Source: Thermomicrobiales bacterium
GTDB taxonomy: Bacteria > Chloroflexota > Chloroflexia > Thermomicrobiales > UBA6265
Assembly (NCBI GenBank): GCA_020853615.1
Contig: JADYYO010000342.1
Span: 3,172 to 67,171 of the forward strand
DNA length: 64,000 nt
Reading direction: 5' to 3'
A program made the translations under genes and the position numbers. The notes beneath the pieces are model-generated. The model was not told the origin of the DNA. It saw only the letters and a program-made list of their open reading frames with translations, and did no database searches. Every line of letters begins with the position of its first letter. The first letter of the stretch is position 1. Positions 36,667 to 49,888 of the stretch are shown in pieces.

Positions 36667-37687
36667 ATGAAGCTCTCCGTCATCACTCCGACCTGTCGCT
36701 CCAACCCGCGGTTCGCGGAGATGGCGGCGACGCTCCTGCAGTCGTTCATGCGCGCGCCGGCGACGACGCTGCTCGAGTGGCTCATCGTCGACGAGGTGCT
36801 CTGGCGCGATCCGCCCGAGGAGCGCCTGGCGCCGATCACCGAGGCGCTCGCGACACTGCCGCTCGAGGTGCGCCAGCGGATCCACGTCGATCACTTCGCG
36901 CCGCCGCCCGGCCAGCACCGCGGCCCCGACATCGCCGACCCGCTGCCCGCCCACAACACCGCGCGCAACGCCGGCCTGGCCGCGGTCGCGCCGGACAGCC
37001 GCTACGTCATCATCCTGTCGGACTGCTCGCTCGTCACGTCCGACTGGGTCACCGTCGCGTGCGAGCTGGCGCAGCAGCACGTGGGCTGGAAGTGCCGGCT
37101 GGCGCAGGTCCACGACATGGTCGTGCCCCACCACCAGCCGCTCCGCTACCAGGACGCGTGGGACACGTTCCACCCGGTCGCAGCGACGACGGTGGCCGGG
37201 CCGTGCTGGGGCGCGCCGCTCGACGCGTTCCTCGCGGTGGGCGGCTTCGACGCCGACTACGACGGCGAGGACGACTACTACGACCACGAGATCCTGCTGC
37301 GCCTCAGCCGCGTCGGGATCCAGTTCCACACCACCAAGCGCGCCGGCGTCGTCCGGCTCCGCCGCACCCTCGTCAAGCACGAGGTGACCAACCACCGCGA
37401 GGTGCTCCATGCGAAGCGCAACGTCGCCTTCTACCGCGCCCTGGCCGCCGACCGCGATCGTCTCCTGCCGGGTGGCAACGCCACCGGAGGTGCCCAGCTT
37501 GGCCGAGGCGCCCCCCACCAGCCGCCGCGTCCCGCTCCGGCTCCGGCTCCGGCTCGCGTGGCGCCGCCTGTGGCGGCCGGAACGCGTCGGGTTCCGGGCG
37601 CTGGCGTTCCGCCGGCGCGACCTGCACCGGCGCGTCCTGCGGCTGCACCTGCTGCAGACCACCGGCTCGCGGTGGGATCCGCCGTGA
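36667..37687 (+). CDS. family-2 (GT-A) glycosyltransferase; reading frame switches +1 near 37450-37500
   Basis: MKLSVITPTCRSNPRF..., GGFDADYDGEDDYYDHEILLRL. GC3 collapses in the starting frame after ~37455 while the +1 frame has high GC3 and stops at 37685-37687. Confidence 0.6.
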
Positions 37688-39309
37688 CGGCCGCGCCGCC
37701 GGTCGCGCGCAGGAACGATCCCCTGACGCCGGCGGCGCACGCGAGCGAGATCTGCGGCTACGTCCACGACGGCACCGCCTGCAAGCTGGTCACCGGCCAC
37801 GCCGGCGCGCACGTCTTCGGGACGCCCGAGTGGGTGTTCGGCGTCGACCCGGCGACGTACGTGCCGCGGTACCGGGAGCTCGAGGCCGCGATGGCCGAGC
37901 GCCGCCTCGCGATCGCCGATCCCCAGACGCCGGCCGAGCGGATCGAGCCGCTCAAGGCGGAGATCGCGGGGCTGGCCGACGAGCAGTCCGATCTCTGGTA
38001 TGCGCTCAGCCCGGCGCAGAAGGACGAGGTGGACCCCGAGGGCGCGCAGGCGCGCGCCTACGCCCGCGAGGCGGGCTCGATCCCGCAGGAGGCCCCGCTG
38101 TCGCTCCACGAGCGCGCCCAGCAGGCGAAGGCGGCCAAGGCGGCCCGGGTGGCGGCCGAGCAGGCCGGGACCGCGCCACCGCTGGCGGACGACGAGCGCT
38201 GCCCGTACACGCCCACCCAGGGGAGCTACGCCGGCATGCGTTGCCGCCACCGCGCGCGCCACGGCGGGCCGCACGCCTACATCGGCCAGACGCCGGCGGC
38301 GCCGGCGGCGCCCGCGGCCAAGAAGCCCGCGCCCACCGTGCCCCGCACGCCGCCGCAGCCCACCGCGGCGATCCAGCAGACGATGACCGCGCTGGCGGAC
38401 CACGGCCAGGTCGTGGTCGGCGAGCTCGCGCTCCTGCCCAAGAACCGCGCCCGGATCGCGGTGGCGATGGCGGTCGCGCTCCGCCAAGACGGGCTGCTCA
38501 CGCTCGAGGCCGACTACCGGCAGTTGCTGACCGAGATCGCCGCGGTCGAGTTCGGGCCGGCCGGCAACGCGCGGTCGGCTCTCGACGAGACGCCCGAGGG
38601 CTGGCTCGCCCAGCGGATGTCGACCTACGCCGGCGCCGAGCTCGACGCCGACCTGGCCGGCGTGGCCGAGATCTGCCAGATGCTCCCGGCGATCCCGGTC
38701 TCGCAGGTCGCGTTCCGCGCGCTCCACGACCACGCGCTGCAGGTCGACCGCTGGCGGGCCGCGAGCGGGCTGTCGCCCCGGGCCGAGATGAAGCTGATCG
38801 ATCGCGCCTACGCCTGCGCCGCCGACCACGGGATCGCGCTGACGCCGCCCGACGACTTTGGGGACTACGCGCTCGACGAGCTGGCCGAGCTCGAGCGCGC
38901 CAACGCCGAGGTGGGCCAGGACGAGATCGCGTCGGTCGAGCCGCTCTCGGCGGCGGCCGCCGCGTGGGAGGCGATGGGCCCGGTCCGGGCGATCGTCCAC
39001 ACCGACGCCTACCTGCAGGCGATCGCGCACGCCAACGGCATCACCGTCGACGAGGCGCAGCGCCGGCGGGACCAGCCGGTGACGCCCGCCGATCAGCCGC
39101 ACGACGACTACGCGACGATCGTGCGCTGGGTGGCGCCTGCCGACGTCACCGGGTTGCTGGCGAAGAACTGGGTGCTGGTCAACGAGGACGACCAGGATCA
39201 GCTCCGCACCTGCTGGCCGCTGCCGGAGCCCGAGTGGCCCGAGGAGCGCCAGCTGGCGTGGGTGCCCGACGCCGACGCGGTCGCGATGCTGACGCTCGAT
39301 CCGCTGTAG
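37684..39309 (+). CDS. hypothetical protein (541 aa) with two Cys/His motifs
   Basis: GTG 37684 in a GTGA overlap with the +1-frame stop; CGYVHDGTACKLVTGHAGAHVF and CPYTPTQGSYAGMRCRHRARHGGPHAY; GC3 high again from here. Confidence 0.6.
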   Translation: MTAAPPVARRNDPLTPAAHASEICGYVHDGTACKLVTGHAGAHVFGTPEWVFGVDPATYVPRYRELEAAMAERRLAIADPQTPAERIEPLKAEIAGLADEQSDLWYALSPAQKDEVDPEGAQARAYAREAGSIPQEAPLSLHERAQQAKAAKAARVAAEQAGTAPPLADDERCPYTPTQGSYAGMRCRHRARHGGPHAYIGQTPAAPAAPAAKKPAPTVPRTPPQPTAAIQQTMTALADHGQVVVGELALLPKNRARIAVAMAVALRQDGLLTLEADYRQLLTEIAAVEFGPAGNARSALDETPEGWLAQRMSTYAGAELDADLAGVAEICQMLPAIPVSQVAFRALHDHALQVDRWRAASGLSPRAEMKLIDRAYACAADHGIALTPPDDFGDYALDELAELERANAEVGQDEIASVEPLSAAAAAWEAMGPVRAIVHTDAYLQAIAHANGITVDEAQRRRDQPVTPADQPHDDYATIVRWVAPADVTGLLAKNWVLVNEDDQDQLRTCWPLPEPEWPEERQLAWVPDADAVAMLTLDPL

Positions 39310-39312
39310 ACT
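39307..39312 (+). promoter_or_regulatory. TAGACT box, 7 nt upstream of ATG 39320
   Basis: ctGTAGACTGgagcgcATG; the TAG is the stop of the upstream gene. Confidence 0.45.
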
Positions 39313-39319
39313 GGAGCGC

Positions 39320-39937
39320 ATGGCGCTCGACCTCGGCTTCCGGAAGCCCGTCCCCGACAACGTCTTTGCCGAGGTGATGAGCGGGTGGGGCCGGCCGCGC
39401 GCCGGCGGCAAGGAGCACTCGGGGCTCGACATCCTCCTGCCGATCGGCAAGCCGGTCGTGGCGATGGCGGACGGGCAGGTGATCCGCGTCCAGGCCACCG
39501 ACGACGGCGGCTCGGCCGGCATCTTCCTCGTGATCCGCCACCCGTCGGGGATCTCGAGCCGCTACATCCACCTGGGCCGGGCCGACGTGCGGCTCAACCA
39601 GCAGGTCGCCAAGGGCCAGGTGATCGGCGCGTCGGGCAACACCGCGATCAAGAACAGCCCGCCGCACATGCACGTCGACATCAAGGTGCCGGCGGCGCTC
39701 TTGCCGCAGATCGAGGCGGCCGCCGGCAAGCCGCCGGGCGGGTGGCACCCGCTGGTCAACCCCTGGGGCTACGGCGTGCCGGCCGAGCCGTGGATCCCGG
39801 TCGACCGCTACTCGGCCCGGACGCTCGAGGACGCGCAGCGCAACGGGATCCCGCTCTACCGGGGCGGGGCCGCGAAGGCGGTCGGGCTCGCCGCGCTGCT
39901 GCTCTTGGGCTGGGGGCTCTACCGCCTGACGCGCTAG
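39320..39937 (+). CDS. M23/LytM metallopeptidase with C-terminal TM anchor
   Basis: HSGLDILLPIGKPVVAMADGQV, RYIHLGRADVRLNQQVAKGQVIGASGNT, PPHMHVDI; ends AVGLAALLLLGWGLYRLTR. Confidence 0.8.
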   Translation: MALDLGFRKPVPDNVFAEVMSGWGRPRAGGKEHSGLDILLPIGKPVVAMADGQVIRVQATDDGGSAGIFLVIRHPSGISSRYIHLGRADVRLNQQVAKGQVIGASGNTAIKNSPPHMHVDIKVPAALLPQIEAAAGKPPGGWHPLVNPWGYGVPAEPWIPVDRYSARTLEDAQRNGIPLYRGGAAKAVGLAALLLLGWGLYRLTR

Positions 39938-40200
39938 ATGCGCTCGCGGATCTGCTGCGGCTGGGCCGGCCCGTCGATGCGGGGTTGCGCCGGGGCCAAC
40001 GGGAAGTCGCGCAGGGCCTCGGCGCGCGCCGCGTCGTTCATGCGGAGGAGCTCGTCGTTGTGCGCCTTGCACAACCGCGGCTCGAGGCCCTCGGCAAAGA
40101 CGCCCAGGGCGATGTCGTAGAGGACGGTGTACTCGGCCGGGCTCGCGCACCGGCAGCACGTGGCCGGCGCGGGTGGTTCGACAACGTCGGTGTTCGGCAT
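39934..40200 (-). CDS. hypothetical small protein (88 aa)
   Basis: Full ORF MPNTDVVEPPAPATCCRCASPAEYTVLYDIALGVF...; convergent overlap with the M23 gene stop. Confidence 0.65.
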   Translation of the reverse strand: MPNTDVVEPPAPATCCRCASPAEYTVLYDIALGVFAEGLEPRLCKAHNDELLRMNDAARAEALRDFPLAPAQPRIDGPAQPQQIRERI

Positions 40201-40206
40201 CCGACG

Positions 40207-40216
40207 ATGGTAGCAT
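40207..40216. promoter_or_regulatory. overlapping divergent -10 boxes in a 23-bp intergenic gap
   Basis: Plus strand TAGCAT (40211-40216) + 7 nt + ATG 40224. Minus strand TACCAT (40212-40207) + 6 nt + ATG 40200. Confidence 0.45.
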
Positions 40217-40223
40217 CGGCCCC

Positions 40224-40571
40224 ATGTACGCGTGGCCCGACGATGCCCCCCGGATCAGCCCCACCCCCGCGCTCGAGGCGCACTACCGCGCGGCGATCGC
40301 CGCGTCGGTCGCGTGGCTCGAGGCCAACGCCGCGCCGGCGCCGACGTGGAGCGGCGGCCACCACGCCAGCCCGGCGGATCCCGCCGCGCAGGCGCACCAC
40401 GCCGCGATCGTGGCGGCGATCGCGGCGCAGCCCGGGCCGACGCCGCAGGGCCTCGCGCTCCGGACGATCGTCACCGTCGCGGCGCGCTGCGCGTTCGTCG
40501 CGCGCGCCGGCGGCTTTGGCGAGGCGGGCTGGGCCAAGGTGCGGGCGACCTTCCAGAGCCCGCGGTCGTAG
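40224..40571 (+). CDS. hypothetical Ala-rich protein (115 aa)
   Basis: MYAWPDDAPRISPTPALEAHYRAAIAASVAWLEAN... Confidence 0.6.
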   Translation: MYAWPDDAPRISPTPALEAHYRAAIAASVAWLEANAAPAPTWSGGHHASPADPAAQAHHAAIVAAIAAQPGPTPQGLALRTIVTVAARCAFVARAGGFGEAGWAKVRATFQSPRS

Positions 40572-40573
40572 CC

Positions 40574-41188
40574 GTGCCGATCCGCGGCCAGCGCGTCGTG
40601 ATCGTCGGGGACAGCCTGTCGGCCGGGCCGCACACGCCCGGCCAGGTGCTGGCCGATCGGCTCGCCGCCGCCGGCGCCGACGTTCGCGTGAACGCGCGCG
40701 TCGGGCGCAGCGCCAACAACTTCTACGGCCGCGAGGACTGGCGGGGCCAGCTGCAGCAGATCGCGGCGACGCACCCCGACGTCGCGATCGTCGTGCTCGG
40801 CACCAACGACATCGGCCTGTCGATGACCGTCGACGCCCAGCGCATGACGCAGCTCCGCGACGCGCTCGCCGGCGCCGGCGCCGACGTCTACGCGTTCGGG
40901 CCGCCGACGTTCCCGCCCGGCACCCGGCTGGTCGCCGGCCAGCCCCAGGTCGTGCGGATGATGCGCGACGTGTTCGGCGGTGATCGCTTCATCGACCTGA
41001 CGCCGCTGACCGCCGACCTGGTGACGAGCCAGCACCGGACCGGAGACCAGGTTCACTTCACCGCCGCCGGCGGCGACGTCGCCGGGCAGCGCATGGCCGA
41101 CGCGTTCCTGCGGGCCTCGAGCGCGCCGGGCGGCGGCTGGCCGGTCGCGGTCGCGCTGCTCGTGGCCGGCTGGTTCCTGCTGCGGTAG
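40574..41188 (+). CDS. SGNH/GDSL hydrolase (esterase) with C-terminal TM anchor
   Basis: GTG start; VVIVGDSLSAG (block I), VLGTNDIG (block III), GDQVHFT (block V DxxH); ends GGWPVAVALLVAGWFLLR. Confidence 0.75.
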   Translation: MPIRGQRVVIVGDSLSAGPHTPGQVLADRLAAAGADVRVNARVGRSANNFYGREDWRGQLQQIAATHPDVAIVVLGTNDIGLSMTVDAQRMTQLRDALAGAGADVYAFGPPTFPPGTRLVAGQPQVVRMMRDVFGGDRFIDLTPLTADLVTSQHRTGDQVHFTAAGGDVAGQRMADAFLRASSAPGGGWPVAVALLVAGWFLLR

Positions 41189-42118
41189 CTACGGCTGGAG
41201 GCCGTAGGCGTAGTTCATCGGGATGCGCTGCTCGATCCCGTCGAACCAGACGTGGGCGCGGCCCGGGATCCGGACCTGCTTGCCCCAGCCCTTGGTGCCG
41301 GTGAAGACGTCGAAGTGCGCGCCGAAGATGCCGCCGCCGGTGTCGTTCACGGTCACCCAGCCGTCGTGGACGTCGCCGCCCGGCAGGCGGAGCCCGACGA
41401 GCTCGAGCACCCAGACCCGGGTGCCGGCCGGCACGACGCCGCCCAGGCTCGCGTAGCGATCGTCGTGCCGCGGCAGCCGGCCGTTGTCGGCGGCGACCGT
41501 GCGGAACGGCCGGCACTCGATCCCCTTGGCGCAGATCGGCCAGCCGCCGGGCCCGGGCCGCTTCACCGCGAACGTGCGGACCTGCGTCACCTGCTGGCCG
41601 CTGACCCGCAGCCCGGCGTACCCCGGCTTGTTGGGCAGCCAGCCGTTGCGCTGCGCCAGCGCCAGCACCGGCTTGTAGAGCGGGGCGTCGGCGCCGGCGT
41701 CGCGCCAGCCGCTCACGTTGATCAGCCGCCCGTCCGCGAGGATGCTCGAGCCCTCGAGCGAGGCCTCGACGAACGCGTGGGCGTTGACCGGCGCGAGCAC
41801 GTGCCCGTCGGCGCCGTAGAGCGGCACCTGGCCCGGGCCCCACGGCTGGACCATGCCCACGTGGTAGTAGGTCAACTGCCAGCGGCGCATCGACTGGATC
41901 TGCGCCGGCGCGCTGCGCTGCAGGGCCTGCGCGATCGGCGCGAGGACGTGGTCCGTCTTGGCGCCGAACCACCCGTCGGCCTCGCCGCACGCCGGGTAGT
42001 CGCGCTGGAAGCGCCGCAGGTCGTCGCGCCAGTTCTCGCCCTCGTAGTCGCCGTCCACCTCGCCGTCGTAGTAGCCCAGCTTCTGGAGTGCGGCCTGTGC
42101 CTCGGGGATGCTCAGCAT
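41189..42118 (-). CDS. peptidoglycan-binding domain + 3D (MltA/RlpA-like) domain muralytic protein
   Basis: LQKLGYYDGEVDGDYEGENWRDDLRRFQ...ADGWFGAKT; C-terminal VNDTGGGIFGAHFDVFTG. Confidence 0.75.
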   Translation of the reverse strand: MLSIPEAQAALQKLGYYDGEVDGDYEGENWRDDLRRFQRDYPACGEADGWFGAKTDHVLAPIAQALQRSAPAQIQSMRRWQLTYYHVGMVQPWGPGQVPLYGADGHVLAPVNAHAFVEASLEGSSILADGRLINVSGWRDAGADAPLYKPVLALAQRNGWLPNKPGYAGLRVSGQQVTQVRTFAVKRPGPGGWPICAKGIECRPFRTVAADNGRLPRHDDRYASLGGVVPAGTRVWVLELVGLRLPGGDVHDGWVTVNDTGGGIFGAHFDVFTGTKGWGKQVRIPGRAHVWFDGIEQRIPMNYAYGLQP

Positions 42119-42149
42119 GGCCGCGAGCGTACCCCGGGCCGGCCCGGCG

Positions 42150-42554
42150 TCACCAGTCGAACGGGAACGCGCCCTCGGCGTTGCCGTGGCGCTCGCGACC
42201 GCCGGCGGCGACGTAGCGCTCGACGTCGGCCGCCAGGTGCGCGGGCACGTCCGCCGGCGCGGCGCCTTGGCCGAGCTGGTAGGCCCAGACCCGCACCGCG
42301 CGCTCGTGCGCCGCGATCGCCGCCGGCGTCGGCGGGATCCACGGGATGCGCGACGCGGGCGCTGACGACCACCGCGGAAGCGCCAGTGGCACCGGCGGGG
42401 GAGGCTCGGGCCGGCGGGTCAGGGCGACGTACGCGGCGGCGCCGGCAAAGCCGCCCACGACCGCGGTGGCGATCGGGTGGCGGCGAAAGAAGCCGCCTAC
42501 GGCCCGGGCGACGTCGGGATCGTTCAAGAGCCCGAGCAACCCCGGCCCGCTCAT
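42150..42554 (-). CDS. membrane protein (134 aa)
   Basis: Start MSGPGLLGLLNDPDVARAV (ATGA overlap at 42551-42554); helix HPIATAVVGGFAGAAAYVAL. Confidence 0.6.
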   Translation of the reverse strand: MSGPGLLGLLNDPDVARAVGGFFRRHPIATAVVGGFAGAAAYVALTRRPEPPPPVPLALPRWSSAPASRIPWIPPTPAAIAAHERAVRVWAYQLGQGAAPADVPAHLAADVERYVAAGGRERHGNAEGAFPFDW

Positions 42555-42853
42555 CGCCGCTGGGCCGCCGCGGCCTGCGCGTTGGTGATGCGCGTGCTCC
42601 GCGCCTGCTGCTCGAGCGGCTCGATCCGGCGCGAGATCTCGGTCAGGAGCCGGATGTACGCGGGGATGTGCCCGACGTTCTTGTAGATCGAGCGCTCGGT
42701 CTTGCCGTTGCGGGTCCACTCGCGGAACACCGCGAACGAGTGCTTGCCGTCGACGGCGCGTTCGGTGATCACGCCCACCAGGCCATCGGGGTCGCGGATC
42801 TCGGCCACCACGATGAACGCGGGCGAGGGATCGTCGGGGAGAGCGTCGGGCAT
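42551..42853 (-). CDS. hypothetical protein (100 aa)
   Basis: Full ORF MPDALPDDPSPAFIVVAEIRDPDGLVGVITERAVDGKHSF... Confidence 0.7.
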   Translation of the reverse strand: MPDALPDDPSPAFIVVAEIRDPDGLVGVITERAVDGKHSFAVFREWTRNGKTERSIYKNVGHIPAYIRLLTEISRRIEPLEQQARSTRITNAQAAAAQRR

Positions 42854-42859
42854 GGTGGG

Positions 42860-43048
42860 CTACATCACCTTGTAGTGCGTCCAGTCGCCGTGGTTGCGCG
42901 GCTTGACCGAGAAGTTGTCGCCGCGCTTGAGCTTGCGCTTGCGCGGCATCTCCAGGTAGGCGCGCTTGGCGCCGTCCAGCGAGCGGGCGTTCACGGTGCT
43001 CATGCGGCCGTCGGGGCCGCGCACCAGGTACATCTCGACGGCCGACAT
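42860..43048 (-). CDS. small basic protein (62 aa)
   Basis: MSAVEMYLVRGPDGRMSTVNARSLDGAKRAYLEMPRKRKLKRGDNF...; first gene of a 3-gene minus-strand operon. Confidence 0.65.
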   Translation of the reverse strand: MSAVEMYLVRGPDGRMSTVNARSLDGAKRAYLEMPRKRKLKRGDNFSVKPRNHGDWTHYKVM

Positions 43049-43120
43049 CGGGCCATCATCCTACCACCACGTGGCGATTGCTGTCAGGTCGCACCTCGGG
43101 CCCGGGTACGATGCGCCCGC
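43049..43120. promoter_or_regulatory. 72-bp divergent promoter region (candidate genetic switch)
   Basis: Minus strand CTGACA-N18-TAGGAT (43063-43058) + 9 nt + ATG 43048. Plus strand TACGAT (43107-43112) + 8 nt + ATG 43121. Palindromes CCACGTGG (43067-43074) and CGGGCCCG. Confidence 0.45.
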
Positions 43121-43324
43121 ATGCTGTCTCCCTCCGCCAAGGCCTTCCGGCTCCAGCTCATCGCCGCCGCCCACTGCAAGGGCCTCGCGAGCGGCGTCCA
43201 CCTGTGGGTCGCCGACGACATCCCCGGCGGGGTGATCTGCGCCGGCTGCGTCGAGCGGCGCGCGCGGGCCGACGTGATCGCCAGCCCCAGCGACGACGAG
43301 CCGCTCGAGGCGACCGCGCCCTAG
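43121..43324 (+). CDS. small protein (67 aa) with CxxC
   Basis: MLSPSAKAFRLQLIAAAHCKGLASGVHLWVADDIPGGVICAGCVERR...; only the tail of tracked 690-aa ORF 41252-43324 is genuine. Confidence 0.6.
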   Translation: MLSPSAKAFRLQLIAAAHCKGLASGVHLWVADDIPGGVICAGCVERRARADVIASPSDDEPLEATAP

Positions 43325-43860
43325 CCCTCGTTCGCCGGCGCGGCCGCCGGCGGCGGCAGCTCCGGCGCCATCGACTCGCCGGTCAGCGCGACCGCGATGC
43401 AGTCGAGCCACGAGCCGTCGGTCAGCGCGCCGGCGGCGCGCGCCTCGGTCAGCCGGGTGTGCGCGAGCCGGTAGCCGCGGATCATCTTCTGATGATCGGC
43501 GACGATCGCCTCCTGCACGTAGCGGACGTCCTGCGAGGCCCCGCGGCCGGGGCGTTCGATCGTCAGCACCAGGTGGTTGGGCGCGCCGTCCGTCGATTCC
43601 GCGCCGCCGGCCATCGTCGAACACACGTACGAGGTGCCGTCGTCGAGCAGCATCGGGATCAGCGAGTTGCCGCGCAGCTCGCGCACCCGCTGCAGATCCT
43701 GCTGGTGCTTGGTGTGCTCGTCGGCCCGCGCCGCCTGCATCGCGTTCTTGAACCATGTCTCGAGCATCTCGGGGCCGAGGCCCCGGCGCAGGAACTCCTT
43801 GGCCCACGCGTGGTGGTCGGTGCAGTTGACGGTCCAGTCGGGAGTGGGAGAGGCAGTCAT
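43321..43860 (-). CDS. hypothetical protein (179 aa), last gene of integrase operon
   Basis: Full ORF MTASPTPDWTVNCTDHHAWAKEFLRRGLGPEMLETWFKN... Confidence 0.75.
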   Translation of the reverse strand: MTASPTPDWTVNCTDHHAWAKEFLRRGLGPEMLETWFKNAMQAARADEHTKHQQDLQRVRELRGNSLIPMLLDDGTSYVCSTMAGGAESTDGAPNHLVLTIERPGRGASQDVRYVQEAIVADHQKMIRGYRLAHTRLTEARAAGALTDGSWLDCIAVALTGESMAPELPPPAAAPANEG

Positions 43861-43979
43861 CGTGGCGTCCTTCGGTTGAGAGTCCAGTTTCGGTCACGCG
43901 GGCGTTCCTCGAGCTCGGCCAGCGCGACGGTTCCACAGGTCATCCACACCCTGTGGACAACCGCGATCATCACGTTCAT
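43857..43979 (-). CDS. 40-aa ORF coupled by ATGA overlaps on both sides (excisionase/RDF-sized)
   Basis: MNVMIAVVHRVWMTCGTVALAELEERPRDRNWTLNRRTPR; its ATG overlaps the int stop and its stop overlaps the next ATG. Confidence 0.4.
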   Translation of the reverse strand: MNVMIAVVHRVWMTCGTVALAELEERPRDRNWTLNRRTPR

Positions 43980-44833
43980 CGACGTTCCTCGACCGGCGGC
44001 TCGAACATGGATTCGGCGACCCGGTCGATCGCCTCGCCGCGGACGTGGTCGACGTACTGCATCGCCGTCGACAGGTTGGCCCACTGCATGTGCTCCATCA
44101 GCTTCGGGAGCGCCTCGGCGTCGCCGGCGTGGGCGCGCAGGAACGTCACCGCGTAGGTTCGACGCAGCCGGTGCGGGTGCAGCCCGTCGATCCCACACCG
44201 TCCTCCCAGCCGCTTGAGTTGGCGCTGGACCTTCCGGGCCGCGCTCTGCAGCCGCACCTCCTCGTCCTTGGACGTCGGAACGAGCAGGTGCGCGACGGTA
44301 TCCCAGCCGCGCTCGTGCGCGAGCAGCTCGAGCCACGGCTTGAACGTCTTGAGCACGGTGAACTCGAGGTAGCGCCGCCCCTTCGCAACGAACGAGAGCC
44401 GGCCCGTAACGAGCGCGCTGACGATCTGCGCGCGCTGCATCCTCAGCACGTCGGCGTCGCGGAACCCGCGGTATGCCATCAACCCGATCACCGCGCGCAT
44501 CGGCGGTGTAAGATCCTTCGCCGCCCGCACCTCGAGCATGAGCCGCTGCAGCGGCTGGGCGTCGACCGGCACTTTCTCTTTCGCGCGCCGGGGCGGCGGC
44601 AAGCGGAACTCGCCCAACGCCTCGCGCAGCGCAGGGTCCACGGCGTAGTCCGCCCAGCGGCGGGCGGCCGCCCGCACCAACCGGCGCGTCTTCGGCGCGC
44701 CCCGCTTGAGCCGCTCGATCCAGCCGCCGTCCTCGGTCGCGCGCTTCGCGTGGTGGACGTAGATCGCGACCGTGCCGGGCTGGAGCCCGAACCGCCCCAG
44801 GTAGGTGCGGAAGCCGTCGAGCGTGGTGGCCAT
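43976..44833 (-). CDS. int: tyrosine recombinase / phage integrase
   Basis: C-terminal catalytic motifs GLHPHRLRRTYAVTFL (HxLRHT-type) and LMEHMQWANLSTAMQYV (GH..x..T..Y); start MATTLDGFRTYL (a GTG at 44845 is also possible). Confidence 0.85.
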   Translation of the reverse strand: MATTLDGFRTYLGRFGLQPGTVAIYVHHAKRATEDGGWIERLKRGAPKTRRLVRAAARRWADYAVDPALREALGEFRLPPPRRAKEKVPVDAQPLQRLMLEVRAAKDLTPPMRAVIGLMAYRGFRDADVLRMQRAQIVSALVTGRLSFVAKGRRYLEFTVLKTFKPWLELLAHERGWDTVAHLLVPTSKDEEVRLQSAARKVQRQLKRLGGRCGIDGLHPHRLRRTYAVTFLRAHAGDAEALPKLMEHMQWANLSTAMQYVDHVRGEAIDRVAESMFEPPVEERR

Positions 44834-44845
44834 GTCCGAAAACAC

Positions 44846-45125
44846 CGTGCGCCGGTCTCCATGCGCTGGTCAAGGCGAGATCCCGGTCTTGACGCGGGGC
44901 GCGGACGTTGGCAGGATGACCGGGTAAGGACATCGGCTGGTCGCCATTGTCCCTGTCGCAACGCTGGCCCGGGATGTCCCCCCGGGCCAGCGCCCTTTTC
45001 GGGCCACCGTTGGCAGATCACTGAACACGCGCACCGTGCCGATCTCCCCGGGAGTGGCGACGGTTGCAGAGTTTCGGTCCGAAAAGGTTGCAACCCCGAC
45101 CCGGCTTCCGCAGGATGCGAGGCCG
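44846..45125. promoter_or_regulatory. int-adjacent noncoding region, attP/regulatory candidate
   Basis: IR GTCAAG-N13-CTTGAC (44869-44893). Direct repeats GTTGGCAG (44907, 45009) and GTTGCA (45063, 45087). Palindrome TTTCGGtCCGAAA (45072-45084). Confidence 0.45.
44964..45000 (+). terminator. 10-bp GC stem-loop followed by CGCCCTTTTC
   Basis: CTGGCCCGGG-atgtccc-CCCGGGCCAG then a T4 run. Its orientation does not match any upstream plus-strand gene, so the function is uncertain. Confidence 0.35.
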
Positions 45126-45568: not shown

Positions 45569-45993
45569 ACATGAACGCGATGATGAGCGCGATGACGGTG
45601 CTTGGGATGGTTGACGGCCCCGAGTTGCTGGTGACGTACGACGGCCACCGCCCGCTCGCGGTGGTCGCGCCGCTTTGCCCGATCACGACCACGACCCGCG
45701 CGCTCTACGACCGCACGCTCTACGACCGCACGCTCGTGGTCGACGCGATCGCGCGCCCCCGGCCGCAGGTGCTGCCCACCGCCGTGCTGATGGCGGCCGC
45801 GTTGGCGTCGACGCCGACCGACATCCTGCCTCGGCGGCAGGGCGGGCTCGATCCGCACCTTGATCGCCGCCACGCGATCGAGGCGGCACGCAAGGCCGAG
45901 GCGCCGGCTCAGCCGAGCGCGCCTGGCGCCGGCGTGGGCGTCAGCGAGGCGCGCCGGCGGCGCCGGGCCGCGAAGCGCAAGAGGGGGTTCTAG
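45565..45993 (+). CDS. hypothetical protein (142 aa) with basic C-terminus
   Basis: GTGA overlap; VNMNAMMSAMTVLGMVDGPELLVTYDG...; ends EARRRRRAAKRKRGF. Confidence 0.55.
   Translation: MNMNAMMSAMTVLGMVDGPELLVTYDGHRPLAVVAPLCPITTTTRALYDRTLYDRTLVVDAIARPRPQVLPTAVLMAAALASTPTDILPRRQGGLDPHLDRRHAIEAARKAEAPAQPSAPGAGVGVSEARRRRRAAKRKRGF
45702..45735 (+). repeat. 15-bp tandem repeat GCTCTACGACCGCAC x2.3 (encodes LYDRT-LYDRT)
   Basis: Read directly at 45702-45735. Confidence 0.85.
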
Positions 45994-46301
45994 TGGAGTC
46001 GCTTGCCCAGCAGCTGCGGGACACCGTCCGCAAGGGCCTCCCCATCCACCAGCGGATCGAGCTCGAGCGCCACCTGGCCGGGCTGTCGGGCTCGCACTGC
46101 GCGCGCGCGATCGGCTGGTCGCACACGCTCTGGCAAGAGCTCGAGGCCGGCCAGCGGGAGCCCCGCCACGAGGAGCTGCCGCGGATCGCCAAGATCCTAG
46201 GGATCAGCGTCCGCCGGCTGACCGGCGGCCACGCCAAGAAGACGCCCGGCTGGAAGCCGATCGGCCGGCCCCGCACCCGCAAGGCGATCACCGCGGCATG
46301 A
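45993..46301 (+). CDS. XRE/Cro-CI-type helix-turn-helix regulator
   Basis: GTG overlapping the TAG stop; LSGSHCARAIGWSHTLWQELEAGQREPRHEELPRIAKILGISVRRL. Confidence 0.7.
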   Translation: MESLAQQLRDTVRKGLPIHQRIELERHLAGLSGSHCARAIGWSHTLWQELEAGQREPRHEELPRIAKILGISVRRLTGGHAKKTPGWKPIGRPRTRKAITAA

Positions 46302-47203
46302 GCGAAGGCAAGTACACCAAGGTGGGCACCGCGCTGTTCGCGTGGGAGCCCTACCTGGCCGTCCGGCGCGAGAGTTCGGATGCCGCGCACCTGTGGCTCG
46401 CGCTCTACGCGTCCGCGCCCGCGAAGCTGCTCATCCCCGGCCTCTGGATGGGCGGCGTGGGCACGATGGCCGACGCGAGCCGCCTGACGTTCCACGAGTG
46501 CGTCCACGCGCTCGACCTGCTGTGCGAGCGCGGTCTGGCCGAGTTCGACCCCAAGACCCAGTTGCTGCGCCTGACGGCCCTGCCCGACAAGAGCGAGGCC
46601 GCGCCCAACCAGGCCTGCCTGCTCGGCTGGTGGAGCCGCCGGCAGGGCCTGCCCGACTGCGGTGTCCGCGAACGCCACCTCGACCTGATGGCGTGGTTGA
46701 CCCTGCCGATCAAGCCCTCGAAGCGCTCCACCGGGCTCGAGATGCAGCGCGCCTGGGACAACACCTGGGGCGCGGCACTGCACGCTCGTGCAGGTCTTTC
46801 CTTCCCAGCTTCTCAGGTTCCGGTTCTGGGTGCCGCAAAACCAAACCAGCTCGACCTGTTGTCCAGCCCACCAAATCGAGACGGTGGGGGGGACCGTCAG
46901 GGGGACGGTCGGGGGGACCGTCCGGAAGAGGTAGAGGTATTGGTAGAGGAGAGAGGGAGAGGTGCAGGAGAGGGAGACCCGGACCACCGGCTCTGGGCGG
47001 CCGTCCTGGCGTCCGCCTCGGAGGGCATCACGGTCCAGAACTTCGACATGTGGCTGGCGCCGCTCCAGTGCCAGCGCGAGGACACCCAGCTCCGGGTGAT
47101 CGCCCCGTCCGAGTTCCACGCGCAGTGGGTGAAGAACAACTACCTGCGCCAGCTGCAAGCCGCCGTCGACCAGCAGGCCCCGGGCCTGCGCATCGCCATC
47201 TGA
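46298..47203 (+). CDS. replication initiator-like protein with DnaA-domain-I-like C-terminus
   Basis: ATGA overlap. C-terminus LWAAVLASASEGITVQNFDMWLAPLQCQREDTQLRVIAPSEFHAQWVKNNYLRQLQAAV matches the DnaA N-terminal domain pattern. Low-GC3 linker carries DNA repeats. Confidence 0.65.
   Translation: MSEGKYTKVGTALFAWEPYLAVRRESSDAAHLWLALYASAPAKLLIPGLWMGGVGTMADASRLTFHECVHALDLLCERGLAEFDPKTQLLRLTALPDKSEAAPNQACLLGWWSRRQGLPDCGVRERHLDLMAWLTLPIKPSKRSTGLEMQRAWDNTWGAALHARAGLSFPASQVPVLGAAKPNQLDLLSSPPNRDGGGDRQGDGRGDRPEEVEVLVEERGRGAGEGDPDHRLWAAVLASASEGITVQNFDMWLAPLQCQREDTQLRVIAPSEFHAQWVKNNYLRQLQAAVDQQAPGLRIAI
46885..46922 (+). repeat. three tandem ~12-bp iteron-like repeats GGGGG(G)ACSGTC, followed by purine-rich lower-GC tract to ~46975
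   Basis: GGGGGGGACCGTC A GGGGGACGGTC GGGGGGACCGTC, then GAAGAGGTAGAGGTATTGGTAGAGGAGAGAGGGAGAGG. Confidence 0.7.
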
Positions 47204-47225
47204 CCAGCCACGAAAGGGACATCCA

Positions 47226-48293
47226 ATGAACGAGACCGACCAGCGCCATCCCGTCAACAGCATCGTCGCGACCGACCACGAGATCCACATCCGCCTCGGC
47301 GGGCTGGCGGTGGCGATCCGCCTTGGCGCAGACGCCACCGACACCGCGGTGATCAACGAGGATCTGTACCTGCCGCTCTACAGCGTGGTTTCGCGCGAGA
47401 TCGCGAAGCGCATCAAGCTTGATGGCAAGTGGCCACAGCGCTTCCGTGAGTTCTTCGAGGCCGACCCCGAGTTCATCAGGAGCTTCGGCGGCGCCATCGA
47501 CGCCTCGATCGCCACCGCTGCCGCGAATGCGCCAGCGACCGACGATGAGCTTGCGGCGCTGTTGCGCGGCGAGAGCCTTCCGCGCGGACGGCGCGTGCTG
47601 GTGATGCAGGCGGCGCTGATCCGGCTCGAGTGGCGGCTCGGGGAGCAGTTGCCGCCGCAGATGCGCGAGATCGGGGCGCGCCTCGAGTCGCTGGAGCGCA
47701 ACATCCAGCAGCTCCGGTCGAACGTCGACGCCAACCTGACGACGCGGATCAGCAAGCTCGAGAGCGACATCACGGCGCTCAAGGTGCAGAAGGGCCACCA
47801 AGGCGACGTCAACGCCGAGCACAAAAAGGCCATCTCCGAGCTCTCGGTCGCGGTCGCCGGCCTCGATCGGGCGGCGCCGCCCGAGCTGGCGTCGCTCGTC
47901 GAGCTGGTGACCGGCCAGCAGGACCAGATCGACAAGCTGCAGGCGATGCTCGAGCCGCGCATCCCCGCCGGTGTGGTCGACGGGCGCCCGGTCGCCGGCC
48001 CGGAGATCGGGATCGCGCTCGACGGCGAGATCGCGCGGGCGATCGACCGCCAGGATCTCGCGACCCGCACGCACGTCGACGAGGCGGTCCGCAGGCTGGC
48101 CGCGACGATCCGCCAGTACGTCCGCGACCAGGTCCAGCAGGCGCTGCGCCGCCGGCCCTCGGCGCTCCGCCGCGTCTGGGACGCGCTCGCCGATCGCGGC
48201 GCGCCGTCCGCGCCCGCACCCGCGCAGGAGCCGGCGGCGGTTCCGCCGGCGATCGCCGAGCTGGCCGAGCAGGCGCTCCGGCGGGGGCGGTGA
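47226..48293 (+). CDS. coiled-coil protein (355 aa)
   Basis: Full ORF MNETDQRHPVNSIVATDHEIHIRLGG...; central heptad-like region (LESLERNIQQLRSNVDANLTTRISKLESDITALK). Confidence 0.75.
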   Translation: MNETDQRHPVNSIVATDHEIHIRLGGLAVAIRLGADATDTAVINEDLYLPLYSVVSREIAKRIKLDGKWPQRFREFFEADPEFIRSFGGAIDASIATAAANAPATDDELAALLRGESLPRGRRVLVMQAALIRLEWRLGEQLPPQMREIGARLESLERNIQQLRSNVDANLTTRISKLESDITALKVQKGHQGDVNAEHKKAISELSVAVAGLDRAAPPELASLVELVTGQQDQIDKLQAMLEPRIPAGVVDGRPVAGPEIGIALDGEIARAIDRQDLATRTHVDEAVRRLAATIRQYVRDQVQQALRRRPSALRRVWDALADRGAPSAPAPAQEPAAVPPAIAELAEQALRRGR

Positions 48294-48298
48294 CCCCG

Positions 48299-49888
48299 AT
48301 GGACGCGTTGCCCGACGGGCCGATCGACGTCGAGATCTTCTCGTGCGCCGGCGGCATGGCCGAGGGGTTCCGGCGCGCCGGGATCACGTTCCACATGGCC
48401 GTCGACATGGCCAAGGACCACTGCGACAGCTACGAGCGCAACCTCGGCCATCGGCCGGTGCAGATGGACGCCCGCGACCTGCTGCGGATGGCGCGCCTGG
48501 GCTGGCGCGTGCCCGTGCGGCTGCTCGTCGCCGATCCGCCCTGCACGCCGTGGTCGCGCGCCGGCAAGCGCCAGGGCGTCAGCGACGACCGCGACATGCT
48601 CCGGCAGACCGCCGAGATCATCGGGCTGCTCCGGCCCCGGGCCTACCTGATCGGCAACGTGCCGGGGCTCGAGGACGCCAACAACCTGGCGGTCGTGCAG
48701 GACGTGATCGGCGGGCTCGCGCGGTGGGGATACTGCGTCAGCGACTTCGCCGCGCTCGACGCGGCCGACTACGGCGTGCCCCAGCACCGCGTGCGGCCGT
48801 TCTGGTTCGGGCACCGCCACGGCCCGTGCCTGCGGTGGCCGTTGCCGACGCACGGCGACCCGTGCGACATCAAGGACACGCTGCCCGGCCTGCCGATGCC
48901 CGCGCCGTGGGTGACGTGCGGGCAGGCGCTCGGTCACCTGTCGCCGCGCGAGCTGGGGCGCATGGTCTGGCTGCGGAAGCGGCCGGCGGCGCCGGCGTCG
49001 GCGCTCCGCGCGAGCGTACCCGAGCGCCCGGCCCGGACCGTCTGCGCCTCGAGCTTGGGCGACGGGAACGTGATCAACTACAGCCGCAAGCACGCGCCGT
49101 CCGCCGGCAACCAGCCCGCCAAGACCGTGCGGACCGGCGGCCGAGGCGGCCACCAGGCCGTCGTCCTCGAGAACACCAACGACTCGGACCCGGGCCAGCC
49201 GGCCAAGACGATCGTCGCGGCCCGGCGAGGCACGCAGGCGATGACGCTGCACGACACGCCCAACCACCCGCCCGCGATGGCGTTTGGCGGCCGCGATGGC
49301 GGCGTCGACCGCACGCACCAGCAAAACAAGCCCGCGCGCGCGATCACGACGCAGACCGGCGACCATGGTGTGCTGGTGCTCGCGATCGAGGGCGCCCGGC
49401 GGCGGGTGCCGCAGTCGGAGCGCGTCGTCGCGACCGATGGCCCGGCGACGACGCTCCAGGCGCGGGAGGATCGGCAGGGCACCGGCATGGTGATGGAGTG
49501 GCCGTGGGCGCGGCCGTCGACGGCGATCATGGCCGATCCCCGGCTGGGCCAGCCGGGCCACAAGGACAAGGCCTGGAAGGGCAAGGGCGGCCAGCGCGCG
49601 CGCGCGAAGCAGCGCGGCGTGCTCTTAAGCGAGCGCGCCGGCGCGATCCTGCAGGGGTTCCCCGAGACCTGGGTGTTCTCGGGCGTCACGAAGAAGACGC
49701 GGTGGAGCCAGATCGGCCAAGCGATGCCGCCGCCCCTCGCGCACGCGGTCGCGCAGAGCATCGTCGCGCAGCTTGCCGCCACCGTCGACGACGGGCCGCC
49801 CGAGAACTACGTGGGCTGGGTGCCCCCGGTCGCGCGCACCGAGTCCGAGGCGCGCGAGCAGCTCGTGCTGGTCGGGGGATCGCCATGA
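48299..49888 (+). CDS. dcm: DNA (cytosine-5) methyltransferase-like, long repeat-containing target-recognition region
   Basis: Motif I IFSCAGGMAEGF, IV DPPCTPWSRAG, VI IGNVPGL (ENV Glu replaced by Gly), VIII QHRVRPFWFG, IX/X LQGFPETWVF...GQAMPPPLA. Confidence 0.8.
   Translation: MDALPDGPIDVEIFSCAGGMAEGFRRAGITFHMAVDMAKDHCDSYERNLGHRPVQMDARDLLRMARLGWRVPVRLLVADPPCTPWSRAGKRQGVSDDRDMLRQTAEIIGLLRPRAYLIGNVPGLEDANNLAVVQDVIGGLARWGYCVSDFAALDAADYGVPQHRVRPFWFGHRHGPCLRWPLPTHGDPCDIKDTLPGLPMPAPWVTCGQALGHLSPRELGRMVWLRKRPAAPASALRASVPERPARTVCASSLGDGNVINYSRKHAPSAGNQPAKTVRTGGRGGHQAVVLENTNDSDPGQPAKTIVAARRGTQAMTLHDTPNHPPAMAFGGRDGGVDRTHQQNKPARAITTQTGDHGVLVLAIEGARRRVPQSERVVATDGPATTLQAREDRQGTGMVMEWPWARPSTAIMADPRLGQPGHKDKAWKGKGGQRARAKQRGVLLSERAGAILQGFPETWVFSGVTKKTRWSQIGQAMPPPLAHAVAQSIVAQLAATVDDGPPENYVGWVPPVARTESEAREQLVLVGGSP

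What the first reader, a model, noticed from the sequence alone, without database searches (positions are those of the whole stretch)
43049..43120. Candidate lysis-lysogeny switch: 72-bp divergent leaderless promoter region next to the integrase cluster
On the minus strand, CTGACA-N18-TgGTAGGAT lies 9 nt before ATG 43048. That gene starts a 3-gene operon: a 62-aa basic protein, a 100-aa protein and a 134-aa membrane protein. On the plus strand, TACGAT lies 8 nt before ATG 43121 (67-aa CxxC protein). The palindromes CCACGTGG (43067-43074) and CGGGCCCG sit between the two promoters. The position (between late genes and int), the opposing small genes and the palindromes resemble CI/Cro-type switches. 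The minus operon could equally be a prophage-expressed exclusion/defence cassette.
Basis: inference. Interest (0 to 1): 0.6.

Follow-up and report, generated by a model that had tools for sequence, protein, structure and literature searches.

The report
Divergent leaderless promoters, not a CI/Cro switch
The 72-bp gap holds real, conserved promoters that start two opposing genes almost at their start codons in an uncultured high-GC phage. Nothing shows it is the lysis-lysogeny switch: it is mainly the promoter of a conserved operon that leads to a cell-wall hydrolase gene.

Summary
The minus-strand promoter (CTGACA-18-TGG-TAGGAT, 9 nt before ATG 43048) is one of only three sigma-70-like sites in the 64-kb window. 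Its core is 40/41 identical in a relative whose synonymous sites are only 53-79% identical. Across six lineages the gene start is always preceded by TAnnnT. Starts with a -10 hexamer 6-9 nt upstream recur in this genome (10 of 84 gene starts against 0.5 expected).

The switch reading is not supported:
- 8-bp palindromes are at chance frequency. CGGGCCCG is not conserved, and CCACGTGG overlaps a lineage-specific TGG insertion.
- No operator repeats were found.
- The 62-aa protein models as a small beta-beta-alpha-beta-beta fold, not an HTH.
- The 67-aa zinc-motif protein is acidic and found only in the closest lineages. Elsewhere the divergent partner is unrelated or absent.
- The minus unit has four genes, ending in a PG_binding_1+3D muralytic enzyme. 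The conserved core is 62 aa, 100 aa and 3D.
- The only XRE regulator found lies 3 kb away, behind another conserved leaderless promoter that diverges from int.

This is an ordinary kind of feature, next to uncharacterised proteins.

The parts
43058..43066 (-). Extended -10 element TGG-TAGGAT of the 62-aa operon promoter. It ends 9 nt before ATG 43048.
   Evidence: Sequence and promoter scan. In six lineages the hexamer is TAGGAT, TAGGAT, TAGCAT, TAGGCT, TACGAT or TATGCT. T1, A2 and T6 are invariant, and the hexamer lies 6-10 nt before the start.
43081..43096 (-). Invariant 16-nt block AGGTGCGACCTGACAG. It contains the -35-like CTGACA (43087-43082) and the ACCTGACA box (43089-43082).
   Evidence: Identical in all four close lineages. 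ACCTGACA occurs once per related locus, always here, including the distant L026. Its distance to the -10 is 18, 15 or 23 nt, so it may be a regulator site rather than a fixed -35.
43067..43074 (.). Palindrome CCACGTGG in the promoter spacer.
   Evidence: Present in 3 of 4 close lineages. L010 and L026 read CGTGG-TAG with no extra TGG, so the palindrome overlaps a lineage-specific 3-nt insertion. It occurs 3 times in the window.
43097..43104 (.). Palindrome CGGGCCCG.
   Evidence: Occurs 14 times in the window and is not conserved in L010 or L001. Treated as chance.
43107..43112 (+). -10-like TACGAT, 8 nt before ATG 43121. No recognisable -35.
   Evidence: TACGAT in the window, L003, L007 and L010, and TACGCT in L001. 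The same GGTACG(A/C)T motif precedes the 309-aa gene.
43121..43324 (+). 67-aa acidic protein with an H18-C19...C40xxC43 motif. Its stop codon overlaps the stop of the convergent 179-aa gene (CTAG).
   Evidence: GC1/2/3 of 0.73/0.55/0.99. The protein is conserved with in-frame indels in the window, L003, L007, L010 and L001. There is no homolog in L023, L025 or L026, and pI is 5.4.
42860..43048 (-). 62-aa basic protein (pI 10.5), first gene of the leaderless operon.
   Evidence: Homologs at 79-98% identity and about 50% in L022, L023 and L026. The AlphaFold2 model has pLDDT 87 with a beta-beta-alpha-beta-beta fold. The best PDB match is AcrIF9, E 0.09, TM 0.62.
42551..42853 (-). 100-aa protein of a widespread uncharacterised family of about 90 residues.
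   Evidence: 97 representative clusters at E<=1e-3, with no Pfam or PDB match. The model has four strands plus a long helix, pLDDT 63. Homologs lie downstream of int in the same orientation in all five more distant contigs whose gene maps were read, and next to a PG_binding/3D gene in three of them.
42150..42554 (-). 134-aa single-pass membrane protein. Its start overlaps the 100-aa stop by 4 nt.
   Evidence: Hydropathy peak at residues 28-46. It is the least conserved gene of the unit, at 62-69% amino-acid identity, and is absent in L023 and L026.
42126..42131 (-). Internal -10-like TACGCT, 7 nt before ATG 42118 of the 309-aa gene.
   Evidence: GGGGTACGCT is invariant in five loci while its flanks vary.
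41189..42118 (-). 309-aa PG_binding_1 + 3D-domain muralytic enzyme with no N-terminal hydrophobic segment.
   Evidence: Pfam 3D at 8e-07 and PG_binding_1 at 1e-06, both above their cut-offs. PHROG endolysin at 1e-03. It is 94-100% conserved.
43321..44833 (-). 179-aa protein of unknown function and a tyrosine integrase, both convergent on the 67-aa gene.
   Evidence: Phage_integrase at 5e-09. The integrase start ATG 44833 is conserved.
44834..45125 (.). Second divergent control region, between int and the early genes. It holds a TTGACC box for int (44873-44868, minus strand), TTGACG-17-CAGGAT (44889-44917, plus strand), a hairpin with a 12-bp stem (44962-44992), and TTGCAA-17-CAGGAT-9-ATG45126.
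   Evidence: About 90% conserved in four lineages, while the adjacent early genes fall to 32-60%. The hairpin carries a compensatory change in L001. Repeats are listed. The RNA fold has a z-score of -3.6.
45993..46301 (+). 102-aa XRE/HTH_31 regulator in the early operon. It is the only repressor-like protein mapped in the window.
   Evidence: Pfam HTH_31 at 1e-07 and PHROG 'transcriptional repressor' at 6.5e-09. NCBIfam RstR-like at 2e-07, below the cut-off.

Best explanation
The 72 bp hold two back-to-back promoters read by the host housekeeping sigma factor. Both transcripts begin at or within a few bases of the start codon.

The leftward promoter (extended -10 TGG-TAGGAT plus the conserved ACCTGACA box) is the conserved promoter of a core phage operon. 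That operon encodes:
- a 62-aa basic protein;
- a 100-aa protein of a widespread uncharacterised family;
- a lineage-specific membrane protein;
- a cytoplasmic PG_binding_1+3D muralytic enzyme, which also has its own -10 element.

I read this as a separately transcribed cell-wall hydrolase (lysis-type) module with two small partner proteins.

The rightward promoter drives a lineage-specific small zinc-motif protein. It is the last gene of the variable cargo region beside int, and its transcript runs antisense into the 179-aa and int genes.

The region therefore marks the boundary between the conserved core and the variable cargo. Any control of the leftward promoter would act through the invariant block around ACCTGACA, by a factor not yet identified.

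Shown: the motifs, their conservation, the gene content and the synteny. Inferred: the transcription start sites, the sigma factor, the timing of expression and the roles of the small proteins.
For: Promoter:
- It is the only sigma-70-like site in 7 kb, against 0.1 expected, and one of three in 64 kb.
- Its core is 40/41 identical to L001, where third-codon identity is 0.53-0.79.
- The TAnnnT pattern is kept in six lineages, with only positions 3-5 varying. This fits a -10 element, not a Shine-Dalgarno site.
- Leaderless-type starts are enriched in the genome (10 of 84 gene starts against 0.49 expected).

Operon:
- The gaps between genes are 6 nt, a 4-nt overlap, and 31 nt.
- Synteny of the ~60-aa, ~100-aa and ~312-aa PG_binding/3D genes is kept in L023 and L026. 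L025 keeps the ~100-aa and 3D genes but lacks the ~60-aa gene.
- Pfam domains of the 309-aa protein are above their cut-offs.
- The Holin_LLH gene at 31205 carries the same TAGGAT hexamer, 7 nt before its ATG.

Cargo boundary:
- The region between int and the 62-aa gene differs in every lineage.
- The divergent partner is non-homologous or absent in other lineages.
Against: - No transcription start sites or expression data exist.
- The host is unknown, so the sigma-factor assignment rests on resemblance to consensus sequences.
- The spacing from ACCTGACA to the -10 varies (15, 18 and 23 nt), so its role as a -35 is doubtful.
- A strong unregulated promoter in front of a muralytic enzyme would be risky in a lysogen, so some control must exist, and I did not find it.
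- The late operon already carries Holin_LLH, SLT, M23 and GDSL genes, so the 3D enzyme need not be the endolysin.
- In L027 and L028 the 100-aa homolog is not followed by a 3D gene.
Confidence: 0.55

Rival explanations
1. CI/Cro-type bistable switch. The 62-aa and 67-aa proteins are mutually antagonistic DNA-binding regulators acting on the palindromes. The minus operon is the lysogenic transcript.
For: - The compact divergent promoters sit next to int.
- A palindrome lies between the -35 and -10, as the OR operator does in mycobacteriophage BPs (PMC4557955).
- The 62-aa protein is strongly basic.
- Divergent leaderless gene pairs recur at this position in L022, L023 and L027.
Against: - The 62-aa model shows no HTH, RHH or Cro-like fold, and neither protein has a family hit.
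- The 67-aa protein is acidic and lineage-restricted. Its counterparts elsewhere are unrelated (a weak phosphatase-like match in L027) or missing.
- There are no repeated operators, and palindromes are at chance frequency and poorly conserved.
- The plus gene leads to no lytic operon.
- The minus unit ends in a muralytic enzyme.
- An XRE regulator and a richer control region lie at 44.8-46.3 kb.
Confidence: 0.1
2. Prophage-expressed accessory cassette (superinfection exclusion, defence or cell-wall remodelling), driven by a constitutive promoter in the lysogen.
For: - It lies beside int, is oriented opposite to the late operon and has its own strong promoter.
- It includes a membrane protein.
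- The membrane protein gene diverges fastest.
Against: - The 62-aa, 100-aa and 3D trio is conserved across relatives down to about 40-50% amino-acid identity, which is unlike typical accessory genes (morons).
- There are no PADLOC hits.
- The muralytic enzyme has no N-terminal hydrophobic segment, so it could not act from outside the cytoplasm without a holin-like partner.
Confidence: 0.15
3. Immediate-early anti-defence or host-takeover operon. A strong leaderless promoter gives instant expression of small proteins, as in acr operons.
For: - The best structural match of the 62-aa model is the anti-CRISPR AcrIF9 (6vqv_A, probability 0.99, TM 0.62).
- 'Lockin', in complex with 3'cADPR, appears among the weak matches of the 100-aa model.
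- The promoter is activator-independent in form.
Against: - All fold matches have E>=0.02, and the fold is a very common small topology.
- No Aca-like HTH gene is in the operon.
- The small genes are linked to a muralytic enzyme across lineages.
- Such strong sequence conservation is atypical for anti-defence genes.
Confidence: 0.1
4. TAGGAT and CAGGAT act as Shine-Dalgarno-like elements on longer transcripts (read-through from int) rather than as -10 boxes.
For: - AGGA lies 11 nt before ATG 43048.
- int and the 179-aa gene are upstream on the same strand, with no terminator predicted between them and the operon.
Against: - The hexamer in relatives is TAGCAT, TACGAT or TATGCT, none of which has a Shine-Dalgarno core, while T1, A2 and T6 are invariant.
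- The 11-nt spacing is long for a Shine-Dalgarno site.
- The TGn extension and the upstream box are conserved.
Confidence: 0.08

Closest known systems
Mycobacteriophage BPs (cluster G) immunity switch: divergent Prep/PR promoters in the 33-34 intergenic region beside int (PMC4557955)
   Same: - Two divergent promoters lie in a short intergenic region near a tyrosine integrase.
- A palindrome sits between the -35 and -10 of one promoter.
   Different: - BPs gp33 is an HTH repressor with operator copies at five genome sites, and gp34 heads the early lytic operon.
- Here neither gene product looks like a repressor.
- The motif occurs once.
- The plus gene stands alone, and the minus unit ends in a muralytic enzyme.
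- Whether attP lies inside a repressor gene was not tested.
Lambda-type CI/Cro OR switch (own knowledge)
   Same: Opposing promoters for small genes, located between the int side and other modules.
   Different: - There are no three related operators.
- There are no HTH proteins.
- No replication or lytic operon lies downstream of either promoter.
Actinobacterial housekeeping promoters with leaderless mRNAs (own knowledge). Streptomyces consensus TTGACR-18-TAGRRT (Strohl 1992) and mycobacterial TANNNT about 7 nt before the start of leaderless genes.
   Same: - CTGACA-18-TAGGAT matches that consensus in 11 of 12 positions.
- TAnnnT lies 6-9 nt before many starts in this genome.
- The 72.5% GC content fits.
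   Different: - The host is unidentified: there are no relatives in GTDB genomes, IMG/VR or cultured phages.
- The 8-9 nt distance from the -10 to the ATG is at the long end of the usual range.
Mycobacteriophage Ms6 lysis cassette, which has its own promoter and a small chaperone-like Gp1 before the endolysin (own knowledge)
   Same: - A dedicated promoter.
- Small non-enzymatic proteins encoded just upstream of a muralytic enzyme that lacks a signal sequence.
- A small membrane protein in the same unit.
   Different: - There is no sequence similarity.
- Ms6 has a long leader with a terminator, whereas here there is none.
- The orientation is opposite to the late genes.
- The role of the small proteins is untested.
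Anti-CRISPR AcrIF9 (PDB 6vqv, 7bb5, 6w1x)
   Same: Similar size and beta-rich fold with one helix. It is the top Foldseek match of the 62-aa model.
   Different: E of 0.09, 19% identity and a common small fold. There is no functional evidence.

Membership tests
CI/Cro-type phage genetic switch | Both divergent genes encode sequence-specific DNA-binding repressors (usually HTH). | tested here: not met
   There are no HTH or RHH family hits for the 62-aa or 67-aa proteins. The 62-aa AlphaFold2 model (pLDDT 87) is beta-beta-alpha-beta-beta with no repressor-like match. The 67-aa protein is acidic, and its structure was not modelled.
CI/Cro-type phage genetic switch | Two or more related dyad-symmetric operators overlapping the promoters. 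| tested here: not met
   No repeated half-sites occur in 42950-43400. The conserved block does not recur in the window at up to 4 mismatches. Palindromes are at background frequency.
CI/Cro-type phage genetic switch | One promoter leads into the early lytic operon. | tested here: not met
   The plus transcript encodes only the 67-aa ORF and then meets the convergent 179-aa and int genes. The early operon (HTH, DnaA_N, methylases) starts at 45126 behind a different promoter.
CI/Cro-type phage genetic switch | The divergent gene pair is conserved as a unit among relatives. | tested here: not met
   The 67-aa homolog is found only in the closest lineages. The partner is unrelated in L023 and L027 and absent in L026.
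CI/Cro-type phage genetic switch | The repressor is expressed in the lysogen and confers immunity. | not testable with these tools
   No host, lysogen or transcriptome is available.
Sigma-70/sigma-A promoter giving a leaderless mRNA | A -10 hexamer TAnnnT with T1, A2 and T6 conserved, ending about 6-10 nt before the start codon. | tested here: met
   Six lineages carry TAGGAT, TAGGAT, TAGCAT, TAGGCT, TACGAT and TATGCT. Such starts are enriched in the genome at P about 1e-10.
Sigma-70/sigma-A promoter giving a leaderless mRNA | A -35 hexamer at 16-19 nt from the -10. | tested here: inconclusive
   In the window CTGACA lies at 18 nt. The conserved ACCTGACA box lies at 15 nt in L010 and 23 nt in L026. 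The TGn extension could make a -35 dispensable.
Sigma-70/sigma-A promoter giving a leaderless mRNA | A mapped 5' end at the start codon. | not testable with these tools
   No RNA data are available.
Holin-endolysin lysis cassette | A muralytic enzyme without a signal peptide. | tested here: met
   PG_binding_1 and 3D score above the Pfam cut-offs. The N-terminus MLSIPEAQAALQKLGYYDGE is not hydrophobic.
Holin-endolysin lysis cassette | A small membrane protein encoded next to the enzyme and conserved with it. | tested here: not met
   The 134-aa single-pass protein is present in the close lineages but absent in L023 and L026. A canonical Holin_LLH gene lies elsewhere, at 31196-31771.
PC4/Sub1-like ssDNA-binding fold (100-aa protein) | A four-stranded sheet plus a C-terminal helix, with detectable profile or structural similarity to PC4. 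| tested here: inconclusive
   The topology fits, and PC4 homologs appear among the matches, but with E 0.3-1.4 and a model of only pLDDT 63. hhalign against human PC4 is not significant.
Known anti-phage defence systems (PADLOC) | Any component model matches the cassette proteins. | tested here: not met
   No hit at E<=1 for the 62-, 100-, 134-, 309-, 67- or 179-aa proteins.

The most novel reading that the evidence does not exclude
The basic 62-aa beta-beta-alpha-beta-beta protein is a new kind of non-HTH autoregulator. It would bind the invariant ACCTGACA block and gate a muralytic-enzyme operon. Together with the antisense-oriented 67-aa zinc protein it would form an unconventional decision circuit next to int. 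Alternatively, the 62-aa and 100-aa pair are new anti-defence proteins expressed immediately from a leaderless promoter.
Probability: 0.1. Interest if true: 0.6.

Novelty: new member of a known kind. Interest (0 to 1): 0.3.

Why it matters
This is a clean, comparatively supported example of leaderless, -10-driven promoters in an uncultured high-GC phage lineage. That lineage has no relatives among cultured phages or reference genomes.

The analysis identifies a conserved trio: a ~60-aa protein, a ~100-aa protein and a 3D muralytic enzyme. The ~100-aa family has about 100 sequence clusters, no annotation and a position downstream of int in every contig examined.

If the small proteins prove to control or chaperone the muralytic enzyme, that would add to what is known about how lysis is regulated.

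As a lysis-lysogeny switch the finding does not hold up. Annotation should not label it as one.

Tried and rejected
Searches for relatives:
- Nucleotide and protein searches of cultured phages (INPHARED) found nothing for the region or for the 100-aa, 309-aa and 638-aa proteins. The integrase gave only a weak XerC-like match.
- IMG/VR scans with the 62-aa and 179-aa proteins found nothing.
- GTDB genome scans found nothing for the 100-aa protein. The 309-aa protein matched only unrelated PG-binding domains in Clostridia. The host could therefore not be identified.

Ideas tested and dropped:
- Palindromes as operators: rejected on frequency and conservation.
- A second copy of the conserved block elsewhere in the window: none found.
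- Inverted repeats flanking the -35: imperfect and not conserved.
- PC4-like identity of the 100-aa protein: the topology is suggestive, but the statistics are not significant.
- AcrIF9-like identity of the 62-aa protein: weak.
- PDB sequence searches: only spurious hits.
- Rfam search of 41-47 kb: nothing.
- tRNA genes, for an attP clue: none.

Not completed:
- The HTH_IclR/MarR_2/HTH_23 hit seen in the bulk Pfam scan could not be mapped. Twenty candidate proteins were negative.

Full report
**Observation**

The window is 72.5% GC and phage-like throughout.
- On the minus strand, CTGACA (43087-43082) is followed by 18 nt, then TGG-TAGGAT (43066-43058), then 9 nt, then ATG 43048.
- On the plus strand, TACGAT (43107-43112) is followed by 8 nt, then ATG 43121.
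- CCACGTGG lies at 43067-43074 and CGGGCCCG at 43097-43104.

GC at codon positions 1, 2 and 3 supports the following as coding:
- the 62-aa, 100-aa, 134-aa and 309-aa genes on the minus strand;
- the 67-aa gene on the plus strand;
- the 179-aa and int genes on the minus strand.

**Is it more than chance?**

- A consensus scan of 40.5-47.5 kb finds a single sigma-70-like site, the minus promoter. Shuffles give 0.1.
- Under the same criteria there are only three sites in the whole 64 kb. The other two form a divergent pair at 52.6 kb.
- TAnnnT ending 6-9 nt before a start codon occurs at 10 of 84 composition-supported gene starts. Among all 3085 ATG/GTG triplets it occurs 18 times. The expected number at gene starts is 0.49, giving P about 1e-10. 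One of the ten starts (31205) was chosen with the motif in view.
- Starts placed directly behind a -10 element are therefore a real habit of this genome.
- The palindromes are not remarkable. There are 803 perfect 8-bp palindromes in the window, and 20% of 72-bp windows hold two or more. CGGGCCCG occurs 14 times.

**Relatives**

- Nothing similar exists in cultured phages, IMG/VR or GTDB genomes.
- The 62-aa and 100-aa proteins have a few close homologs in metagenome assemblies. Their contigs (L001-L011) are syntenic with the window.
- A profile of the 100-aa protein finds 97 more distant clusters. All are unnamed proteins of about 90 residues with no Pfam or PDB match.
- Contigs for five of these (L023, L025-L028) and a JGI contig (L022) supply deeper comparisons.

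**Conservation of the promoter region**

- In the four close lineages the block AGGTGCGACCTGACAG is invariant and GTGGTAGGAT is kept.
- Against L001 the stretch from that block to the -10 is 40/41 identical. Third codon positions of the flanking genes are only 53-79% identical.
- Across six lineages the hexamer before the 62-aa homolog is TAGGAT, TAGGAT, TAGCAT, TAGGCT, TACGAT or TATGCT, lying 6-10 nt from the start. Only positions 3-5 vary. That is the signature of a -10 element, not of a ribosome-binding site.
- ACCTGACA occurs once per related locus, always at this place, including the distant L026. Its distance to the -10 is 18, 15 or 23 nt. It may therefore be a regulator site rather than a fixed -35.
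- L010 and L026 read CGTGG directly before TAG. The window lineage has an extra TGG, and CCACGTGG overlaps that insertion. CGGGCCCG is not conserved.
- The plus-side TACGAT is kept in the close lineages, with TACGCT in L001. That half of the gap is only about 60% identical to L001.

**The genes**

- *62-aa protein.* It is basic (pI 10.5). It models confidently (pLDDT 87) as beta-beta-alpha-beta-beta. Its best matches are the anti-CRISPR AcrIF9 (E 0.09, TM 0.62) and uncharacterised small phage proteins. None is significant, and none is a repressor fold.
- *100-aa protein.* It models weakly (pLDDT 63) as four strands plus a long helix. PC4-family proteins appear among non-significant matches. 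Profile comparison with human PC4 is negative.
- *134-aa protein.* It has one hydrophobic segment. It is the least conserved gene of the unit.
- *309-aa protein.* It carries PG_binding_1 and 3D domains above the Pfam cut-offs and has no signal sequence. It is 94-100% conserved. An invariant GGGGTACGCT lies 6-7 nt before its ATG.
- *67-aa protein.* It is a real, conserved protein (RLQ[LM]IxAAHCKGLAxGVHxWV...CxGC). It is acidic (pI 5.4) and matches no family.

**Synteny**

- In L023 and L026 the order is int, a variable set of genes, then ~60 aa, ~100 aa and ~312 aa PG_binding/3D. This block is convergent on the GDSL and M23 genes at the end of the late operon.
- L025 has the same layout but lacks the ~60-aa gene.
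- The membrane protein gene is missing in L023 and L026.
- In L027 and L028 the ~100-aa homolog still lies downstream of int but is not followed by a 3D gene.
- The 67-aa protein has no homolog in L023, L025 or L026.
- The gene facing the 62-aa homolog is an unrelated 84-aa protein in L023. In L027 it is a weakly phosphatase-like 149-aa protein, again with TACGAT before its start. In L026 there is nothing.
- The conserved unit is therefore the leftward operon and its promoter. The rightward gene belongs to the variable cargo beside int.

**Other control regions**

- The int/early gap (44834-45125) is about 90% conserved in four lineages, while the next early genes drop to 32-60%.
- It holds a TTGACC box for int and TTGACG-17-CAGGAT. 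It also holds a hairpin with a 12-bp stem, carrying a compensatory change in L001, and TTGCAA-17-CAGGAT-9-ATG45126, whose hexamers and spacing are kept while the spacer diverges.
- The operon it heads contains the only repressor-like protein mapped, a 102-aa XRE/HTH_31 protein.
- If this phage has a classical immunity switch, this region is the better candidate.

**Interpretation**

The region is a back-to-back pair of promoters for leaderless mRNAs.
- The leftward one is the conserved promoter of a core operon that leads to a muralytic enzyme.
- The rightward one serves a lineage-specific small zinc-motif protein and points antisense into the 179-aa and int genes. The two genes share overlapping stop codons (CTAG).

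I favour a separately transcribed cell-wall hydrolase module with two partner proteins. One supporting detail is that the Holin_LLH gene at 31205 has the same TAGGAT hexamer 7 nt before its ATG. Timing and control remain unknown.

The match of CTGACA-18-TAGGAT to the Streptomyces TTGACR-18-TAGRRT consensus, together with the high GC, points to an actinobacterial host. That consensus is recalled from my own knowledge (Strohl 1992), and the host assignment is an inference only.

**Comparison with known systems**

The closest described arrangement is the Prep/PR region of mycobacteriophage BPs. There a 12-bp palindromic operator lies between the -35 and -10 of PR, next to int (PMC4557955).

The present region shares the geometry. 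It fails the defining tests of a repressor/Cro switch on four counts:
- no repressor-like proteins;
- no repeated operators;
- no lytic operon downstream;
- no conserved gene pair.

It is a new member of a known kind, a divergent leaderless promoter region, flanked by uncharacterised proteins.

Noticed in passing
window 30796, 35875, 36653, 39306 (+): The motif GTAGACTG(G/C) occurs four times in the window, always on the plus strand. An ATG lies at the same offset after each copy, 7 nt after the TAGACT hexamer. Three of these ATGs are the starts of the genes at 35889, 36667 and 39320. There the TAG of the motif is the stop codon of the preceding gene. The fourth ATG, near 30811, is not in my gene list. 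These may be internal -10 promoters or re-initiation signals in the late operon.
   Followed up: partly
window 44834-45125: The int/early intergenic region is about 90% conserved in four lineages. It has tandem TTGACG/TTGCAA-17-CAGGAT promoters, CGTTGGCAG and GGTTGCA repeats, and a perfect hairpin with a 12-bp stem (44962-44992) that carries a compensatory change in L001. The leader RNA folds with a z-score of -3.6. There is no Rfam match. It could be the true early/immunity control region, an attP, or a small RNA.
   Followed up: partly
window 52600-52700: Two of the three best sigma-70-like sites in the window form a divergent pair. Their -35 boxes overlap as the palindrome TTGACGGTCAA. One reads TTGACC-16-TATCGT-6-ATG52621 (minus strand) and the other TTGACG-18-TATACT (plus strand). 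The flanking 173-aa and 259-aa proteins have no family hits.
   Followed up: no
window 42551-42853 (-); L023, L025, L026, L027, L028: The 100-aa protein belongs to an unannotated family of about 90 residues, with 97 clusters at 50% identity. In each of the five contigs whose gene maps were read it lies downstream of a tyrosine integrase in the same orientation, directly after it in L028.
   Followed up: partly
window 31196-31771 (+): A Holin_LLH (Phage_holin_6_1) gene scores 36 bits against a cut-off of 24.9. TAGGAT lies 7 nt before an internal ATG at 31205. It is the only other TAGGAT placed before a gene start in the window.
   Followed up: partly
window 43321-43324: The 67-aa (+) and 179-aa (-) genes end in overlapping stop codons within CTAG. 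There is no room for a terminator, so their transcripts must converge.
   Followed up: no
window 33059-41188 and 41189-42118: The window encodes four different cell-wall enzymes (SLT, M23 peptidase, GDSL esterase and PG_binding+3D) plus an 880-aa protein. Glycosyltransferase families were hit in the bulk Pfam scan but were not mapped to a gene. A GDSL esterase at the end of the late operon recalls LysB of phages that infect mycolic-acid bacteria (own knowledge).
   Followed up: no
window 46298-50790; L003 1115-1747: The early operon carries a DnaA_N-domain protein, a C5 cytosine methylase and a D12 adenine methylase. The relatives L003 and L027 also carry a Mom-like gene.
   Followed up: no
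whole window: No PHROG or Pfam hit to a terminase, portal or capsid protein was listed among the reported families. The 638-aa protein has no match in cultured phages. This is a deep-branching uncultured phage lineage found in farmland soil (L023) and other metagenomes.
   Followed up: partly
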